Below are positions 82-6,035 of a stretch of DNA of 64,000 nucleotides, one piece after another. The stretch's first letter is position 1, and every line of letters begins with the position of its first letter. The notes beneath the pieces are model-generated. The model saw only the letters and a program-made list of their open reading frames with translations, ran no database searches and was not told the origin of the DNA. Both the position numbers and the translations under genes were made by a program. Source of the stretch: a virus; IMG/VR virus record IMGVR_UViG_3300029319_000004, positions 32,001-96,000 of that record; one strand, given 5' to 3'.

Positions 82-161
82 GGGACAGTATCTCCTCGCT
101 CTTATAAAGCGTAGAAAGAGTAGTCGGTTACACGTGGGTTCAAACCCCACCTGTCCCACCA
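82..161 (+). tRNA. tRNA-like gene, anticodon TAT (Ile/AUA), non-canonical arm order, encoded CCA
   Basis: Acceptor stem GGGACAG (82-88)/CTGTCCC (151-157), discriminator A158, CCA 159-161. T-arm GTGGG-TTCAAAC-CCCAC (134-150). Anticodon hairpin CGCT-CTTATAA-AGCG (97-111). No D-arm lies 5' of the anticodon arm. Confidence 0.75.
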
Positions 162-177
162 TTAATGGAGGACGATA

Positions 178-387
178 ATGAAAAGAAGCTTAACAATGTT
201 TATTATTGCTGGAATATTTTTTGCTGGCTGTGCTGGTACGCAACCTAACGTTGCAACTGTCACTATCAATGTACATACCCAGCCCAGTATTCACTCTTTC
301 TACACTTACGAAAGACGATGCAAAAAAAGAAACCCGCAAATTTATCAAAAAGTATGCAAGACAGTTTTAATCAAACATAAATCATGA
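178..387 (+). CDS. small predicted lipoprotein
   Basis: GGAGG RBS; basic N-terminus, hydrophobic stretch and lipobox FAGC. Confidence 0.65.
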   Translation: MKRSLTMFIIAGIFFAGCAGTQPNVATVTINVHTQPSIHSFYTYERRCKKRNPQIYQKVCKTVLIKHKS

Positions 388-1364: not shown

Positions 1365-2000
1365 ATGAATGAACGATGGAGTCTGTGGCAAAGAAACGTA
1401 ATTGATCGTTTTAAAAACATGCCAGACGAAGAAATCAAAAAAGAGCTACAACGCACTGCACATCCTGTTGCTGTATGTATGGAACAATGGCAAGGCGACT
1501 TTAATATCAGCACGCTAATCCGAAACGCCAATGCCTTTAACGTTGAAAAAGTGTTTTACTTTGGCAGAAGACGATACGATCGTCGAGGTACAGTCGGTAC
1601 TCACAACTATACAGATATTCAGTTTCTTGATGGTGGATACGACCAGTTAGAGACACTAAAAAATCAATATACATTTGTAGGCGTCGATAACAACGTATCT
1701 CAGAAAACCTTTAAATTAGGCGAGTTTGATTGGAATACACTATCAAAACCACCGTTGATGATCTTCGGTGAGGAAGGCACTGGATTGACACAACAAGCTA
1801 TTCAAATGTGTCATATTCTATTAGAAATTCCTCAATATGGGTCTGTTCGCAGTCTGAATGTTGGCACAAGTTCTGGAATACTCTTATATGACTACGTGAA
1901 CTATCTAAAAAATTCCACAAATCAACATATGTTGCGGACAATGAAATATGATGAAACCTGTAGTGGACAGAATGAATCATGCCAACTAACTCTCCTTTAG
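1365..2000 (+). CDS. trmH: SpoU/TrmH-family (SPOUT) RNA 2'-O-methyltransferase
   Basis: Motifs DFNISTLIRNANAF, LMIFGEEGTGL and EIPQYGSVRSLNVGTSSGILLYD; AGGA RBS. Confidence 0.9.
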   Translation: MNERWSLWQRNVIDRFKNMPDEEIKKELQRTAHPVAVCMEQWQGDFNISTLIRNANAFNVEKVFYFGRRRYDRRGTVGTHNYTDIQFLDGGYDQLETLKNQYTFVGVDNNVSQKTFKLGEFDWNTLSKPPLMIFGEEGTGLTQQAIQMCHILLEIPQYGSVRSLNVGTSSGILLYDYVNYLKNSTNQHMLRTMKYDETCSGQNESCQLTLL

Positions 2001-2631: not shown

Positions 2632-3942
2632 ATGAAAAAAACATATGTCCTTGATACTAACGTATTTTTGACGAACGCAAATTCAGTATTTGAATTTAAA
2701 AATAATGATATTGTAGTCCCGTTAAAAGTACTAGATGAAATTGATAAACACAAGAAAAGACAAGATGGCGTTGGTCTCAACGCTAGAAAAATAATAAGAA
2801 TATTAGACAACTTACGAAGCAAAGGTAATCTTCATAGAGGTGTTAGAATGGGAAGGGGGATGGGCATTTTATCCGTTAGAGGATATGATGTAGAAGATCT
2901 TCCACAAGGCTGTGATCTTGAAAGCGCAGACAATGAAATTATCACAACTGCGATTACAGAACACAAAAAAAATAAAAAAAGAAAAGTAATTGTTGTAACT
3001 CGTGATATTAATATGCGAGTTAAATGTGACTCTCTTGGTGTTCCAACTGAAGATTATGTTCCTAATCGAGTTGTCGAAGACGAAAGTAAATTATATTCAG
3101 GTTTTGTAAAACATTTAGTTGACGATCAGCTAATTGATCAGTTTTATGAAGGAGAAGAGATTATATTAGAAAAAGAAGATGGTAAGTTTTCTTCTAATGA
3201 ATTTGTGATGCTAGTGTCCAATAGTAATGATAAAAAAACAGCACTTGCTCGTTTTATAAATTACTCTTCACCGCTTAAAAAAATAAGAGATTATAAAGGC
3301 AAAGGACCATGGGGCCTTAATCCAAGAAATAAGGAACAAATGTTTGCGTTTGATCTTTTAATGGATGAGAATGTTCCAATAATAACTCTTATAGGAAAAG
3401 CCGGCTGTGGAAAAACTCTGCTAGCAATAGCTGCAGGCTTGGAGCAAGTTTTAGAAAAAGATATATATAAAAAGCTAGTTGTATCGCGACCTGTTCAGCC
3501 ACTAGGAAAAGATATTGGTTACTTACCTGGTACAATGGAAGAGAAGATGCGCCCTTGGCTTATGCCAATTCAGGACAACTTAGACTTTCTTATGAATGGT
3601 AAAAAAAGCAATATGGATATGTTTTTTGAAAATGGAACAATTCAAGTTGAAGCTTTAACTTATATAAGAGGTCGCTCAATTTCTAATGCGTTTATTATAA
3701 TTGATGAAGCACAAAATTTAACAATGCACGAATTAAAGACTATAATCACTAGAGTAGGAGAAAATACAAAAATTATTTTAACAGGTGACATCGAACAGAT
3801 TGATAGTGTTTACTTAGATGCAACTTCAAATGGTCTCTCTTACGCTGTAGAAAAATTTAAACCACACGAGATATCTGGCCATGTTACGCTTGTTAAAGGT
3901 GAAAGATCAAAAGTTGCAACGCTAGCTTCAAAGGTATTATAA
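2632..3942 (+). CDS. phoH: PIN domain-PhoH ATPase fusion (PhoH2/YlaK-like)
   Basis: N-terminal PIN motifs YVLDTNV, ADNEII and VTRDINMRVK; Walker A GKAGCGKT; PhoH motifs SRP...IGYLPG and YIRGRSISNAFIIIDEAQN. Confidence 0.93.
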   Translation: MKKTYVLDTNVFLTNANSVFEFKNNDIVVPLKVLDEIDKHKKRQDGVGLNARKIIRILDNLRSKGNLHRGVRMGRGMGILSVRGYDVEDLPQGCDLESADNEIITTAITEHKKNKKRKVIVVTRDINMRVKCDSLGVPTEDYVPNRVVEDESKLYSGFVKHLVDDQLIDQFYEGEEIILEKEDGKFSSNEFVMLVSNSNDKKTALARFINYSSPLKKIRDYKGKGPWGLNPRNKEQMFAFDLLMDENVPIITLIGKAGCGKTLLAIAAGLEQVLEKDIYKKLVVSRPVQPLGKDIGYLPGTMEEKMRPWLMPIQDNLDFLMNGKKSNMDMFFENGTIQVEALTYIRGRSISNAFIIIDEAQNLTMHELKTIITRVGENTKIILTGDIEQIDSVYLDATSNGLSYAVEKFKPHEISGHVTLVKGERSKVATLASKVL

Positions 3943-4920: not shown

Positions 4921-5257
4921 CAAAGAAAATAAAGTGCTTAAATTAAAAGTTACTATACCTAAAAAAAAATATCACAAAGATCCTAACATCTCTGACATTC
5001 GGTTTGAAGCTAAAGAAGCTTGGGACCTTGTCAAAGGTAAAAAAATAGAAGGCTATGTTGTAGAGTTTGCACAATCTTTAGTACAATTAGATAATTTTGC
5101 TCTTTTTCGTCATGAAGGAGAATTTGTTTTTCCCTTGAGAGAGTTGCCAAAAAAGACAGTTGCTTCTGCCAAGAAACCACTTGCTAAGAGAAACACTACA
5201 AAAAAGCCAAGAAGACCAAGAAAAGCTTCTAACAAGGCTGAGAATGCAAAAAACTAG
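4898..5257 (+). CDS. hypothetical protein with basic Lys/Arg-rich C-terminal tail
   Basis: GAGG RBS; C-terminus KKPLAKRNTTKKPRRPRKAS. Confidence 0.65.
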   Translation: MKHKITIDKENKVLKLKVTIPKKKYHKDPNISDIRFEAKEAWDLVKGKKIEGYVVEFAQSLVQLDNFALFRHEGEFVFPLRELPKKTVASAKKPLAKRNTTKKPRRPRKASNKAENAKN

Positions 5258-6035
5258 AAATCACATTTCTTTTTCTGAAATAAAAATTTGGCAAGAGTGC
5301 CCGCACAAACACAAGTTATACTATATTGATGGCTTAAGAGTGTTCAAGGGCAACGAATATACTGCTTTTGGAAAAGCACTTCATGCAGTAAGCGAAAACT
5401 TTCTTGTCAAAGAAATGCAGCAAAGTCCTTCGGATTTTTTTGAAGCTGAGTTTTTAAATGAGCTTAAGGCCCTAAGCCAGGATGCTCCTGAATTAGAGCT
5501 TCGACCCACTCTTGTTAAGGAAATGCGTATACAAGGTAAAGATCTTGCGCCACTTATTAAGCCAGCTCTTGACAAGTACTTTGGTAAGTGTGAAATTTTT
5601 TCTGTTGAAGAAGAGATTTTACAAGAACTTCAGCAAAAAACTAATTTTAAAGGCTATATTGACCTGGTCGTGAAGAAAGAAGATCATTATTATATTATTG
5701 ATTGGAAGACTTGTAGTTGGGGATGGGACGCAAAAAGACGTTCTGATAAGATGACAACGTACCAGCTAGCATACTACAAGCACTTCTTTTGCGAAAAGCA
5801 CAATATTCCACTAGAAAATGTCTCTGTGTGCTTTGGTCTTCTTAAAAGAACTGCTAAAAAAGATAGAGCTGAAATATTTGAAATTTCTTGTGGCCCTAAA
5901 AAAATTAAAAATGCGCTTAAATTAATGGATACTGCGCTTTATAATATTAACAAACAAACTTTTGTTAAGAATAGACTCTCTTGCCATGGGAAGTTTGGTC
6001 AATGCGAGTTTTACAAAACAAACCACTGTAGGTAA
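5244..6035 (+). CDS. PD-(D/E)xK nuclease, Cas4/AddB-like with iron-staple cysteines
   Basis: HISFSEI..WQECP, GKALH, FKGYIDLV, IIDWKT, QLAYY, and C-terminal CHGKFGQCEFYKTNHC; start inferred at MQKTRN (5244). Confidence 0.85.
   Translation: MQKTRNHISFSEIKIWQECPHKHKLYYIDGLRVFKGNEYTAFGKALHAVSENFLVKEMQQSPSDFFEAEFLNELKALSQDAPELELRPTLVKEMRIQGKDLAPLIKPALDKYFGKCEIFSVEEEILQELQQKTNFKGYIDLVVKKEDHYYIIDWKTCSWGWDAKRRSDKMTTYQLAYYKHFFCEKHNIPLENVSVCFGLLKRTAKKDRAEIFEISCGPKKIKNALKLMDTALYNINKQTFVKNRLSCHGKFGQCEFYKTNHCR

What the first reader, a model, noticed from the sequence alone, without database searches (positions are those of the whole stretch)
82..161. tRNA-like RNA with swapped arm order (D-like hairpin 3' of the anticodon arm) and a UAU anticodon
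Seen: a perfect acceptor stem, T-arm and encoded CCA. The anticodon hairpin (97-111, loop CU-UAU-AA) starts only 8 nt after the acceptor strand, so there is no D-arm in its normal place. Instead a D-loop-like hairpin GTA-GTCGGT-TAC (120-131, carrying the GG dinucleotide) lies between the anticodon arm and the T-arm; TCTC (91-94) can pair with 113-120 to close a new junction. Established: bacteria normally decode AUA with lysidine-modified tRNA-Ile(CAU), and UAU anticodons are rare. Inference: this is either a functional tRNA with a novel topology supplying AUA decoding for an AT-rich phage, or a tRNA mimic acting as decoy for host anticodon nucleases or uncharged-tRNA sensors.
Basis: partly seen in the sequence, partly recalled or inferred. 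Interest (0 to 1): 0.82.

Follow-up and report, generated by a model that had tools for sequence, protein, structure and literature searches.

The report
Phage isoleucine tRNA with rewired core
This 80-base gene in a marine phage is very probably a working isoleucine tRNA (anticodon UAU, for the codon AUA). The pieces of its D-arm lie on either side of the anticodon arm instead of in front of it, a non-cloverleaf layout shared by hundreds of phages, missed by tRNA finders, and not described in any paper I could find.

Summary
Window 82-161 (+) is a real, conserved tRNA-like gene.

Among 129 distinct homologues, three features are conserved or covary:
- a 3-bp helix (92-94 with 118-120) that closes the anticodon arm;
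- a D-loop-like segment UAR-YY-GGU-NR-CA (121-132);
- a single pair, G123:C133, that behaves like the Levitt pair 15:48.

The scaffold carries only isoleucine anticodons (UAU, then GAU, rarely CAU). It sits inside phage tRNA arrays and tends to complement the canonical tRNA-Ile genes beside it. In this complete 180.7-kb phage it is the only tRNA with a UAU or GAU anticodon, and AUA makes up 33% of Ile codons.

Best reading (about 0.75): a functional tRNA-Ile whose core blocks are transposed but can still form the L-shape. Charging, decoding and expression were not tested; the one RNA run did not cover the gene.

I found no description in six literature searches. Earlier agents of this scan reported the same family on other phage DNA. 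About 77 cultured Streptomyces phage records and Rhodococcus phage Peregrin carry it, almost always unannotated, so it can be tested at the bench.

The parts
82..88 (+). Acceptor stem, 5' strand (GGGACAG), pairs with 151-157
   Evidence: All 7 pairs show changes on both sides across 100 distinct homologues; 96.6% of cells are paired. They are the top-ranked mutual-information pairs.
89..91 (+). U8-A9-U10 linker (TAT), invariant
   Evidence: Columns 8-10 are invariant in 100 of 100 sequences. U89 is the likely partner of A122, equivalent to U8:A14 (inference).
92..94 (+). D-stem-like helix, 5' strand (CTC), pairs with 118-120
   Evidence: 100% paired. The middle pair is CG 56 / UA 42 / UG 2. 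The outer pair also occurs as A:U and U:A. The double change arose within at least 4 acceptor-stem lineages, including sequences that differ only at these two bases.
95..96 (+). C-U spacer opposite 112-113; U96 faces U112 (U-U in 92%) and C95 faces A113 (83%)
   Evidence: Column counts. Reading these as non-Watson-Crick continuations of the anticodon stem (27:43 and 26:44 equivalents) is inference.
97..111 (+). Anticodon arm: 4-bp stem 97-100/108-111, loop CTTATAA, anticodon UAU at 103-105, U33 at 102, A37 at 106
   Evidence: All 4 stem pairs covary and 99% of cells are paired. C32, U33, A35, U36 and A37 are invariant. Position 34 is U 90 / G 9 / C 1. With the anticodon left free in the search pattern, all folded matches still carry NAU.
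112..117 (+). Linker TAGAAA; GAAA at 114-117 is invariant and forms a 4-nt bulge between the anticodon stem and the D-like stem
   Evidence: Columns 33-36 are invariant in 100 of 100. Its role, such as base triples in the groove of the D-like stem like residues 9, 45 and 46 of canonical tRNA, is inference.
118..120 (+). D-stem-like helix, 3' strand (GAG)
   Evidence: See 92-94.
121..133 (+). D-loop-like strand TAGTCGGTTACAC. A122 is like A14, G123 like R15, G126-G127 like G18-G19, A132 like A21, C133 like Y48.
Evidence: U121, A122, G126, G127, U128, C131 and A132 are invariant. The 123:133 pair covaries: AU 72 / GC 27; AU 85, GC 38, A-C 3, G-G 3 of 129. AU and GC forms interchange within 3 lineages.
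134..150 (+). T-arm: stem 134-138/146-150, loop TTCAAAC (T54, psi55 and C56 positions, A58)
   Evidence: 4 of 5 stem pairs covary. Loop positions U54, U55, C56 and A58 are 99-100% conserved. The two exceptions swap U54:A58 to A54:U58 together.
151..157 (+). Acceptor stem, 3' strand (CTGTCCC)
   Evidence: Related marine contigs carry a different but complementary acceptor pair (loose end at 152; L027).
158..161 (+). Discriminator A73 and encoded CCA
   Evidence: A73 in 100 of 100 and C74 in 99 of 100. Full CCA is encoded in 13 of 100 members. Three of this phage's four canonical tRNA genes (Leu, CAU, Arg) also encode CCA.

Best explanation
Window 82-161 encodes a functional elongator tRNA-Ile (anticodon UAU, reading AUA) of a phage-borne lineage in which the blocks of the tRNA core are transposed.

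In a canonical tRNA the order is: 8-9, D-stem 5' strand, D-loop, D-stem 3' strand, 26, anticodon arm, variable loop, T-arm. Here the chain runs differently. It goes from U8-A9-U10 straight into one strand of a 3-bp D-like stem (92-94) and down the anticodon arm. It then returns through an invariant GAAA bulge into the other strand of that stem (118-120). Only then does it run through a D-loop-like strand (A14-, R15-, G18G19- and A21-like residues) and a Y48-like base into the T-stem.

Each new junction joins residues that are spatial neighbours in the canonical L-shape: 8 next to the 13:22 end of the D-stem, 44 next to 10, and 21 next to 48. The molecule can therefore keep the D-stem stacked on the anticodon stem, the U8:A14 and R15:Y48 pairs, and the G18G19 to T-loop elbow.

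Shown here: the helices, the conserved residues, the covariation, the restriction to Ile anticodons, and the position in tRNA arrays. Inferred: the L-shaped fold, processing by RNase P and 3' trimming, charging by the host IleRS (anticodon, A37, A73), and use on the ribosome to supply AUA decoding for a phage in which AUA is a third of all Ile codons.
For: 1. Rfam tRNA match above the gathering score, obtained only by deleting the D-arm and inserting 18 nt.
They come from marine, gut and soil phages, including crAss-like phages, Streptomyces cluster BE phages, Rhodococcus phage Peregrin and a 462-kb phage.
3. 97.9% of cells are paired against 69.5% in shuffles, and 18 of 20 pairs show double changes. 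Sliding the partner by 1-3 columns drops pairing to 37-48%.
4. An all-against-all mutual-information scan puts 15 model pairs in the 15 top places, including 12:38 and 42:53.
5. Compensatory switches are repeated within lineages.
6. RNAalifold returns the same structure.
7. Residues matching U8, A14, G18, G19, A21, U33, A37, T54, psi55, C56, A58 and A73 are 99-100% conserved.
8. Anticodons are UAU 90, GAU 9, CAU 1 of 100. With the anticodon unconstrained in the pattern, 149 of 150 matches still carry NAU loops and the exception does not fold.
9. 127 of 141 loci hold canonical tRNA genes within the fetched stretch, often only a few nt away.
10. Complementarity with neighbours: rewired UAU lies with canonical GAU in 16 loci and with canonical UAU in 4; rewired GAU lies with canonical UAU in 4 and with canonical GAU in 0.
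11. This phage is complete and has one copy and no canonical Ile(GAU/UAU) gene. Its other tRNAs are Leu-UAA, Arg-UCU, Asn and CAU. Codon use is ATA 20.4, AGA 20.5 and TTA 24.6 per thousand.
Against: There is no direct evidence of transcription, end maturation, aminoacylation or decoding. The single metatranscriptome that holds this phage covers only 2246-2525.

The 3-D argument is inference from canonical tRNA structure; nothing was modelled. IleRS, EF-Tu, RNase P and the ribosome all touch the tRNA core or elbow, and it is unknown whether they tolerate this one. Some phages carry a canonical tRNA-Ile(UAU) as well (4 loci), so the rewired form is not needed merely to supply that anticodon. The reason for the rewiring is unexplained.

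The shuffle controls do not correct for relatedness, although reduce that concern.
Confidence: 0.75

Rival explanations
1. It is a tRNA mimic that is not used in translation. It would copy the acceptor/T-arm and the tRNA-Ile anticodon loop to titrate or mislead a host factor, such as an anticodon nuclease, a tRNA-modifying enzyme or a sensor of uncharged tRNA.
For: The non-cloverleaf core might not be accepted by the translation machinery. Phage tRNAs are known to counter tRNA-cleaving defences (established knowledge). Some phages keep a canonical tRNA-Ile(UAU) beside it. Allo-tRNA(UAU) species tested by Mukai et al. were inactive in translation (PMC5389517).
Against: A decoy for an anticodon nuclease needs only the anticodon loop. 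Here A73, the 7/5 acceptor-T branch, the G18G19-like GG and the Levitt-like pair are all kept, which is the full set needed for an L-shape and for charging. The anticodon changes between UAU, GAU and CAU, and complements the neighbouring canonical Ile genes as an isoacceptor would. The hosts span many phyla, so a single host target is unlikely. No anticodon nuclease specific for tRNA-Ile is known to me.
Confidence: 0.13
2. It is a working tRNA but is charged with another amino acid, so AUA would be recoded or read ambiguously in infected cells. One candidate is Leu: bacterial LeuRS reads A73 and core tertiary features, and nematode V-arm tRNAs with anticodon UAU are leucylated.
For: A73 is invariant, the A15:U48-like pair predominates and the core is unusual. 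nev-tRNA-Ile(UAU) is misacylated with Leu in vitro (abstracts of PMC3333845 and PMC4300185, listed).
Against: The anticodon is restricted to the three Ile anticodons, which is what recognition by IleRS predicts. LeuRS ignores the anticodon, so it would impose no such restriction. GAU members would then misread the commonest Ile codons, which would be highly deleterious. No signal of recoding was looked for or seen.
Confidence: 0.05
3. It is a precursor that is cut and religated after transcription into a canonical cloverleaf, as the circularly permuted tRNA genes of Cyanidioschyzon merolae are.
For: The blocks present would make a normal tRNA if the segment 118-132 were moved in front of 92.
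Against: The mature 5' and 3' ends are already in place and paired. Restoring the normal order would need two internal cuts and two ligations, and no bacterial or phage pathway for that is known. No bulge-helix-bulge motifs are present. The helix 92-94/118-120 and the pair 123:133 covary in the arrangement as encoded.
Confidence: 0.02
4. It is a decaying tRNA pseudogene or a chance tRNA-like sequence.
For: ARAGORN rejects it at default settings, and most phage annotations leave it blank.
Against: There are more than 100 distinct homologues in unrelated phages, with compensatory changes in every helix and 40 invariant positions.
Confidence: 0.01

Closest known systems
Canonical bacterial and phage tRNA-Ile (Rfam RF00005; isoacceptors GAU, lysidine-CAU and the rarer UAU type)
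   Same: 7-bp acceptor stem, 5-bp T-stem with a UUCRA loop, 7-nt anticodon loop with U33 and A37, A73, NAU anticodons, a GG dinucleotide in a D-loop-like context, an R15:Y48-like covarying pair, location in tRNA arrays, and a length of 77 nt before CCA.
   Different: The order of the core blocks. One D-stem strand precedes the anticodon arm; the other strand and the D-loop follow it. There is no separate variable loop; an invariant GAAA bulge takes its place. The D-like stem has 3 bp and the anticodon stem has 4 Watson-Crick pairs plus U-U. Gene finders miss it.
D-arm-lacking mitochondrial tRNAs (mt-tRNA-Ser(AGY), nematode mt-tRNAs)
   Same: No hairpin between the acceptor stem and the anticodon stem; only a short connector.
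   Different: Those are truncated (about 54-65 nt), have lost the G18G19 to T-loop elbow, and need adapted mitochondrial factors. This RNA is full length, keeps all elbow residues, and rebuilds a D-stem from non-adjacent strands.
Allo-tRNAs, including (8/4) allo-tRNA(UAU) (Mukai et al. 2017, PMC5389517)
   Same: Non-canonical bacterial or phage tRNAs found in metagenomes. UAU is a predominant anticodon. They are missed by standard annotation.
   Different: Allo-tRNAs have an 8/4 or 9/3 acceptor-T branch, a normal-position D-arm (long stem, tetraloop) and a long variable arm, with Ser identity. The present family is 7/5 with no D-arm at the normal place.
Class II tRNAs (Leu, Ser, Tyr) and nematode nev-tRNA-Ile(UAU)
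   Same: Extra nucleotides between the anticodon arm and the T-arm. Rfam's model aligns the element this way.
   Different: Class II tRNAs keep a normal D-arm and their extra arm is a self-contained hairpin. Here the extra segment pairs back to the 5' connector and carries the D-loop residues; its own hairpin is not conserved.
Circularly permuted tRNA genes of Cyanidioschyzon merolae (from my own knowledge: Soma et al. 2007)
   Same: The gene order of tRNA parts differs from the cloverleaf order.
   Different: There the whole gene is circularly permuted at the ends and processing restores a normal cloverleaf. Here the ends are normal, internal blocks are transposed, and the mature RNA is expected to keep that order.

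Membership tests
tRNA (Rfam RF00005, cloverleaf) | Score at or above the curated gathering threshold | tested here: met
   34.2 bits against 29, reached only through a D-arm deletion and an 18-nt insertion.
tRNA (Rfam RF00005, cloverleaf) | 7-bp acceptor stem, 5-bp T-stem and 7-nt T-loop with T54, psi55, C56 and A58 | tested here: met
   82-88/151-157 and 134-150. The stems covary and the loop is conserved.
tRNA (Rfam RF00005, cloverleaf) | Anticodon arm with a 7-nt loop, U33 and a purine at 37 | tested here: met
   97-111. C32, U33 and A37 are invariant. The stem has 4 Watson-Crick pairs plus U-U rather than 5.
tRNA (Rfam RF00005, cloverleaf) | D-arm hairpin between positions 9 and 26 | tested here: not met
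   Only 8 nt lie between the acceptor and anticodon stems. ARAGORN finds nothing at default settings or with introns. Its relaxed-threshold cloverleaf needs a mismatched acceptor stem starting at 74.
tRNA (Rfam RF00005, cloverleaf) | Core tertiary set (U8:A14, R15:Y48, G18G19 with the T-loop) | tested here: inconclusive
   All residues are present and invariant, and the 15:48-like pair covaries. They lie in a different chain order, and the contacts themselves cannot be shown by sequence.
tRNA-Ile identity | Anticodon NAU (G, modified C, or U at position 34), with A35 and U36 | tested here: met
   UAU here. In the family UAU 90, GAU 9, CAU 1, and no other anticodon when the pattern leaves it free.
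tRNA-Ile identity | A37 (site of t6A after U36) and discriminator A73 | tested here: met
   Both are invariant in 100 of 100. That they are IleRS determinants is established knowledge for E. coli.
tRNA-Ile identity | Aminoacylation by IleRS and decoding of Ile codons | not testable with these tools
   Needs in vitro charging or tRNA sequencing of infected cells.
D-arm-lacking mitochondrial-type tRNA | Truncated length and loss of the D-loop/T-loop elbow residues | tested here: not met
   77 nt plus CCA. GG and the UUCRA T-loop are invariant. ARAGORN's mitochondrial mode finds no such gene on this strand.
Allo-tRNA (8/4 or 9/3) | 12-bp acceptor branch split 8/4 or 9/3, with a D-arm of long stem and tetraloop and a long V-arm | tested here: not met
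   The branch is 7/5 and there is no D-arm hairpin. Definition taken from PMC5389517.

The most novel reading that the evidence does not exclude
The transposed core is an adaptation rather than an accident. It would keep the surfaces read by IleRS, EF-Tu and the ribosome while removing the normal D-arm hairpin and variable loop that host nucleases, modification enzymes or tRNA quality control read. That would give phages an Ile decoder, mostly for AUA, that works independently of host control and of the TilS-dependent tRNA-Ile2. If so, it would be the first natural tRNA of non-cloverleaf connectivity shown to act in bacterial translation, and a case of topological escape from tRNA-targeting defence.
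Probability: 0.15. Interest if true: 0.92.

Novelty: new variant of a known kind. Interest (0 to 1): 0.8.

Why it matters
The cloverleaf order of tRNA arms is among the most universal features of biology. Outside mitochondria, deviations are limited to arm lengths and extra arms. A widespread phage lineage that keeps every tertiary-contact residue but joins them in another order would show two things: that the L-shape, not the cloverleaf connectivity, is what translation requires, and that tRNA cores can evolve by block transposition.

There are practical consequences too.
- Standard finders miss the gene, so phage tRNA complements are under-counted and Ile can seem missing. In one cultured phage the gene is annotated as tRNA-Leu, and in another a CDS is drawn over it.
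- It offers a compact, naturally validated alternative scaffold for tRNA engineering.
- Cultured Streptomyces and Rhodococcus phages carry it, so it can be tested directly.

Tried and rejected
- **Expression.** The one RNA run that holds this phage (X20) gave contigs only at 2246-2525. That says nothing about the element.
Tested and rejected.
- **Single-sequence MFE fold.** It pairs 93-94 with 114-115 and forms the GTA/TAC hairpin. Covariation contradicts both.
- **ARAGORN.** Nothing at default settings or with introns. Mitochondrial mode gives only a spurious hit on the opposite strand. A relaxed threshold gives a forced 87-nt cloverleaf (74-160) with a mismatched acceptor stem.
- **Promoter and terminator scan.** No sigma-70-like site directly upstream and no terminator after it. 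The gene is probably co-transcribed with its + strand neighbours, which is inference.
- **Link to the nearby SpoU/TrmH-like methyltransferase and PIN-PhoH2** (a lead from another first-reader note). Both domains are real. tblastn found no homologue of either in any of the other fetched loci, which reach at most about 15 kb. No family-wide linkage was detected within the DNA fetched.
- **Cellular origin.** Of 47 pattern hits in 185,579 species genomes, 30 are true members and all lie in MAG contigs. The two hits in isolate genomes were chance matches.
- **PHROGs.** Nothing for the small flanking ORFs.
- **Literature.** Six searches and two papers read found no description. The library lacks most subscription journals, so this is not proof of absence.
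- **Other rejected readings.** attP or integration site: no integrase nearby, and the gene lies in arrays of large lytic-type phages. tmRNA-like domain: it has a full anticodon arm.

Full report
**What is in the sequence**

Window 82-161 (+ strand) reads, in order:
- acceptor strand GGGACAG (82-88);
- TAT (89-91);
- CTC (92-94);
- CT (95-96);
- anticodon stem CGCT (97-100), loop CTTATAA (101-107) and stem AGCG (108-111);
- TAGAAA (112-117);
- GAG (118-120);
- TAGTCGGTTACAC (121-133);
- T-arm GTGGG-TTCAAAC-CCCAC (134-150);
- acceptor strand CTGTCCC (151-157);
- A158 and CCA (159-161).

Rfam's tRNA model matches 82-158 at 34.2 bits (gathering score 29). It does so only by deleting the D-arm (4 nt against 15 model positions) and inserting 18 nt before the T-arm. 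ARAGORN reports no tRNA in the window. It also finds nothing with introns allowed. At a relaxed threshold it forces an 87-nt cloverleaf starting at 74, with a mismatched acceptor stem.

**Where it lies**

The window is bases 32001-96000 of a complete 180.7-kb IMG/VR phage genome with direct terminal repeats. The phage occurs in marine metagenomes of nine studies. It has one copy of the element. A tmRNA lies 0.9 kb upstream (ARAGORN, and Rfam at 127 bits). Four canonical tRNAs (Leu-UAA, Asn-GUU, CAU, Arg-UCU) lie 132 kb away.

**It is a family**

BLAST found the same 70-80 nt in Streptomyces phages and in a crAss-like phage, in intergenic DNA without annotation. A covariance model built from 18 seeds found 102 matches at 74-103 bits in 100 sources. 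It found 30 more in MAG contigs of many phyla. No true member lay in an isolate bacterial genome.

Among cultured phages, about 77 Streptomyces cluster BE records carry it, as do Rhodococcus phage Peregrin, two crAss-type records and a 462-kb uncultured phage. Almost all leave it unannotated. EGole calls it tRNA-Leu(UUA), and in Coruscant the FtsK-like CDS is drawn over it.

**Structure from covariation**

I counted pairs on 100 distinct sequences.
- 97.9% of cells are paired, against 69.5% in shuffles and 37-48% when partners are slid by 1-3 columns.
- Every acceptor, anticodon-stem and T-stem pair except the invariant G53:C61 shows double changes.
- The helix 92-94/118-120 is paired in 100% of sequences. 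Its middle pair is C:G in 56, U:A in 42 and U:G in 2.
- Its outer pair is also seen as A:U (one marine locus and the EGole-type Streptomyces phages) and as U:A.
- The search pattern allowed all four Y/R combinations at the middle pair, so that correlation is not built in.

The double change recurs within at least four acceptor-stem lineages, including sequence pairs that differ at these two bases only. An all-against-all mutual-information scan with average-product correction places 15 model pairs in the 15 top ranks. RNAalifold returns the same structure.

It shows no double change, its third pair is unpaired in 46% of sequences, and G120 is already engaged with C92.

**The D-loop-like strand**

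After the helix come invariant U121 and A122, then a purine at 123, two pyrimidines, invariant G126, G127 and U128, two variable bases, invariant C131 and A132, and a pyrimidine at 133 just before the T-stem.

Positions 123 and 133 covary: A:U 72, G:C 27, other 1. Over all 129 sequences the counts are A:U 85, G:C 38, A-C 3 and G-G 3. A:U and G:C forms interchange within three lineages.

This is the pattern of the Levitt pair R15:Y48. From my own knowledge, G15-G48 occurs in E. coli tRNA-Cys; such exceptions would be odd in an ordinary helix. Read this way, 118-132 is collinear with positions 10/11-21 of a normal tRNA (D-stem strand, A14, R15, Y16, Y17, G18, G19, U20 ... A21), and 133 corresponds to position 48. 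In the T-loop, the two sequences that lose U54 and A58 swap them together to A54:U58. That fits the reverse-Hoogsteen pair of a real T-loop.

**How the rewired core could fold (inference)**

In the canonical L-shape U8 pairs with A14 next to the 13:22 end of the D-stem, the 26:44 pair stacks on 10:25, and A21 and Y48 lie beside the 8:14 and 15:48 pairs. The three junctions that differ here are 8-9-10 into the top of the D-like stem, the 44-like residue through GAAA into the bottom of that stem, and the A21-like residue into the Y48-like one. Each joins residues that are already neighbours in space. The molecule can therefore keep the D-stem on the anticodon stem and the D-loop on the T-loop, with two blocks (10-21 and 22-47) exchanged along the chain. 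The invariant GAAA bulge may fill the groove of the short stem, as residues 9, 45 and 46 do in normal tRNAs. None of this was modelled.

**Identity and use**

The anticodon is UAU in 90, GAU in 9 and CAU in 1 of 100 distinct sequences. C32, U33, A35, U36, A37 and A73 are invariant. When I repeated the viral scan with the whole anticodon arm left free, 149 of 150 matches still carried NAU loops and the one exception does not fold. The scaffold is therefore an Ile-specific lineage, which is what IleRS recognition of the anticodon, A37 and A73 predicts.

The gene behaves like a tRNA gene in the genome. 127 of 141 loci hold canonical tRNAs in the same stretch, often a few nt away. The commonest neighbours are Arg-UCU, Met-CAU and Leu-UAA.

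It tends to complement its neighbours. Rewired UAU lies with canonical Ile-GAU in 16 loci and with canonical Ile-UAU in 4. Rewired GAU lies with canonical UAU in 4 loci and never with canonical GAU. Three loci carry rewired GAU and UAU together. By my own calculation Fisher's exact test gives p of about 0.007, not corrected for relatedness.

In this phage, 128 long ORFs use ATA at 20.4 per thousand, 33% of Ile codons. AGA is at 20.5 and TTA at 24.6, the codons read by its other tRNAs. ARAGORN finds no canonical Ile(GAU) or Ile(UAU) gene in the genome. Whether its CAU tRNA is Met or Ile2 was not resolved.

**What is not shown**

Transcription, processing, charging and decoding are all untested. 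The only RNA library holding this phage covers 2246-2525 and not the element. No promoter-like site lies directly upstream, and 124 of 128 ORFs are on the + strand. Co-transcription with the neighbouring genes and release by RNase P and 3' trimming is therefore the likely route, but that is inference.

**Rivals**

- A non-translational mimic (0.13) would not need A73, the 7/5 branch and the elbow residues all at once. It also would not switch anticodon in step with the neighbouring isoacceptors.
- Charging with another amino acid (0.05) does not explain the restriction to Ile anticodons, and would be very costly for the GAU members.
- Post-transcriptional rearrangement into a cloverleaf (0.02) has no known pathway, and the covariation supports the arrangement as encoded.
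- A pseudogene (0.01) is excluded by the conservation.

**Comparison with known kinds**

It works like, and most probably is, a tRNA-Ile, but it fails the defining cloverleaf feature of a D-arm hairpin between positions 9 and 26.
- It is not an allo-tRNA, which has an 8/4 or 9/3 branch with a normal D-arm and a long V-arm (PMC5389517).
- It is not a truncated mitochondrial-type tRNA, because it is full length and its elbow residues are intact.
- It is not a class II tRNA, because the extra segment is not a self-contained arm.
- It is not a circularly permuted gene of the Cyanidioschyzon type, because its ends are normal.

The 2020 review of non-canonical tRNAs (PMC7609411) never uses the word phage, and its passages on UAU anticodons and on D-arm-lacking tRNAs concern only allo-tRNAs and mitochondrial tRNAs. 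Four further full-text searches found nothing.

Earlier agents of this scan reported the same family on other phage genomes and likewise found no publication. I formed my reading before seeing their notes, and I tested the structure, the anticodon restriction, the array context and the literature myself.

**Verdict**

The finding is a new variant of a known kind, of high interest, and testable in cultured Streptomyces and Rhodococcus phages.

Noticed in passing
Outside the window: G000:C1:30845-31193 = L001:286-634 (+), about 0.9 kb upstream of the element: The phage encodes a full-length tmRNA (ARAGORN tag ANDNVSFDYALAA; Rfam RF00023 at 127 bits). Streptomyces cluster BE phages, which also carry the rewired tRNA, encode a tmRNA too according to their genome announcements.
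   Followed up: partly
window 1365-2000 (+): A 211-aa SpoU-family RNA 2'-O-methyltransferase (PF00588, 83.7 bits). The best NCBIfam match is TrmH (Gm18) at 58.9 bits, far below its cut-off, so the subfamily is unresolved. tblastn found no homologue in any other fetched locus that holds the rewired tRNA, so no family-wide link was detected within the DNA fetched.
   Followed up: yes
window 2632-3942 (+): A PIN-PhoH2 protein: an N-terminal PIN_4 domain plus a PhoH ATPase. NCBIfam's RNA 5'-3' helicase PhoH2 model scores 305 bits, below its cut-off of 680. It is not found next to the element in other loci.
   Followed up: partly
L003:2448-2493, L005, L008 (crAss-like group); L007, L009, L014, L037 group (about 45 nt directly upstream of the element): A 5' half of a canonical tRNA (acceptor strand, D-arm, anticodon arm with a GUG-type or mutated loop) abuts the rewired gene and has no T-arm or 3' acceptor strand. 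In the related locus L036 an intact tRNA-His(GUG) sits at that place. These look like truncated, decaying tRNA-His genes, because their changes are not compensatory.
   Followed up: partly
L201:1495-1571 (Streptomyces phage EGole) and H4/H5 (Coruscant, record positions 73031-73102): Annotation errors caused by the odd fold. EGole annotates the element as tRNA-Leu (codon UUA), although its anticodon loop reads CUGAUAA (GAU). In Coruscant the FtsK-like CDS overlaps the element. In LilMartin, EGole and relatives a nucleotidyltransferase gene ends just upstream of it.
   Followed up: partly
window 178-387 (+): A 69-aa ORF starts 17 nt after the CCA. It has a lipoprotein-like N-terminus (hydrophobic stretch ending in AGC) and no PHROG match. 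The next ORF (384-602) has homologues just downstream of the element in two related marine loci (L096, L121).
   Followed up: partly
A3/A4 columns 59 and 63 (window 139 and 143); members L063:3968-4047 and L170:1209-1288: Two members have a T-loop reading AUCAUUC, in which U54 and A58 are exchanged together to A54:U58. This is a compensatory change in a tertiary (reverse-Hoogsteen) pair.
   Followed up: no
window 125 and 152 onward, in runs X1, X4 and X5: Related marine strains carry C125T (a D-loop pyrimidine). Some carry a different acceptor 3' strand with the matching 5' strand (L027 type), so the acceptor stem is turning over among close relatives.
   Followed up: no
window 5160-6035 (+): An ORF with a PD-(D/E)XK nuclease domain (PF12705, 60.8 bits).
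   Followed up: no
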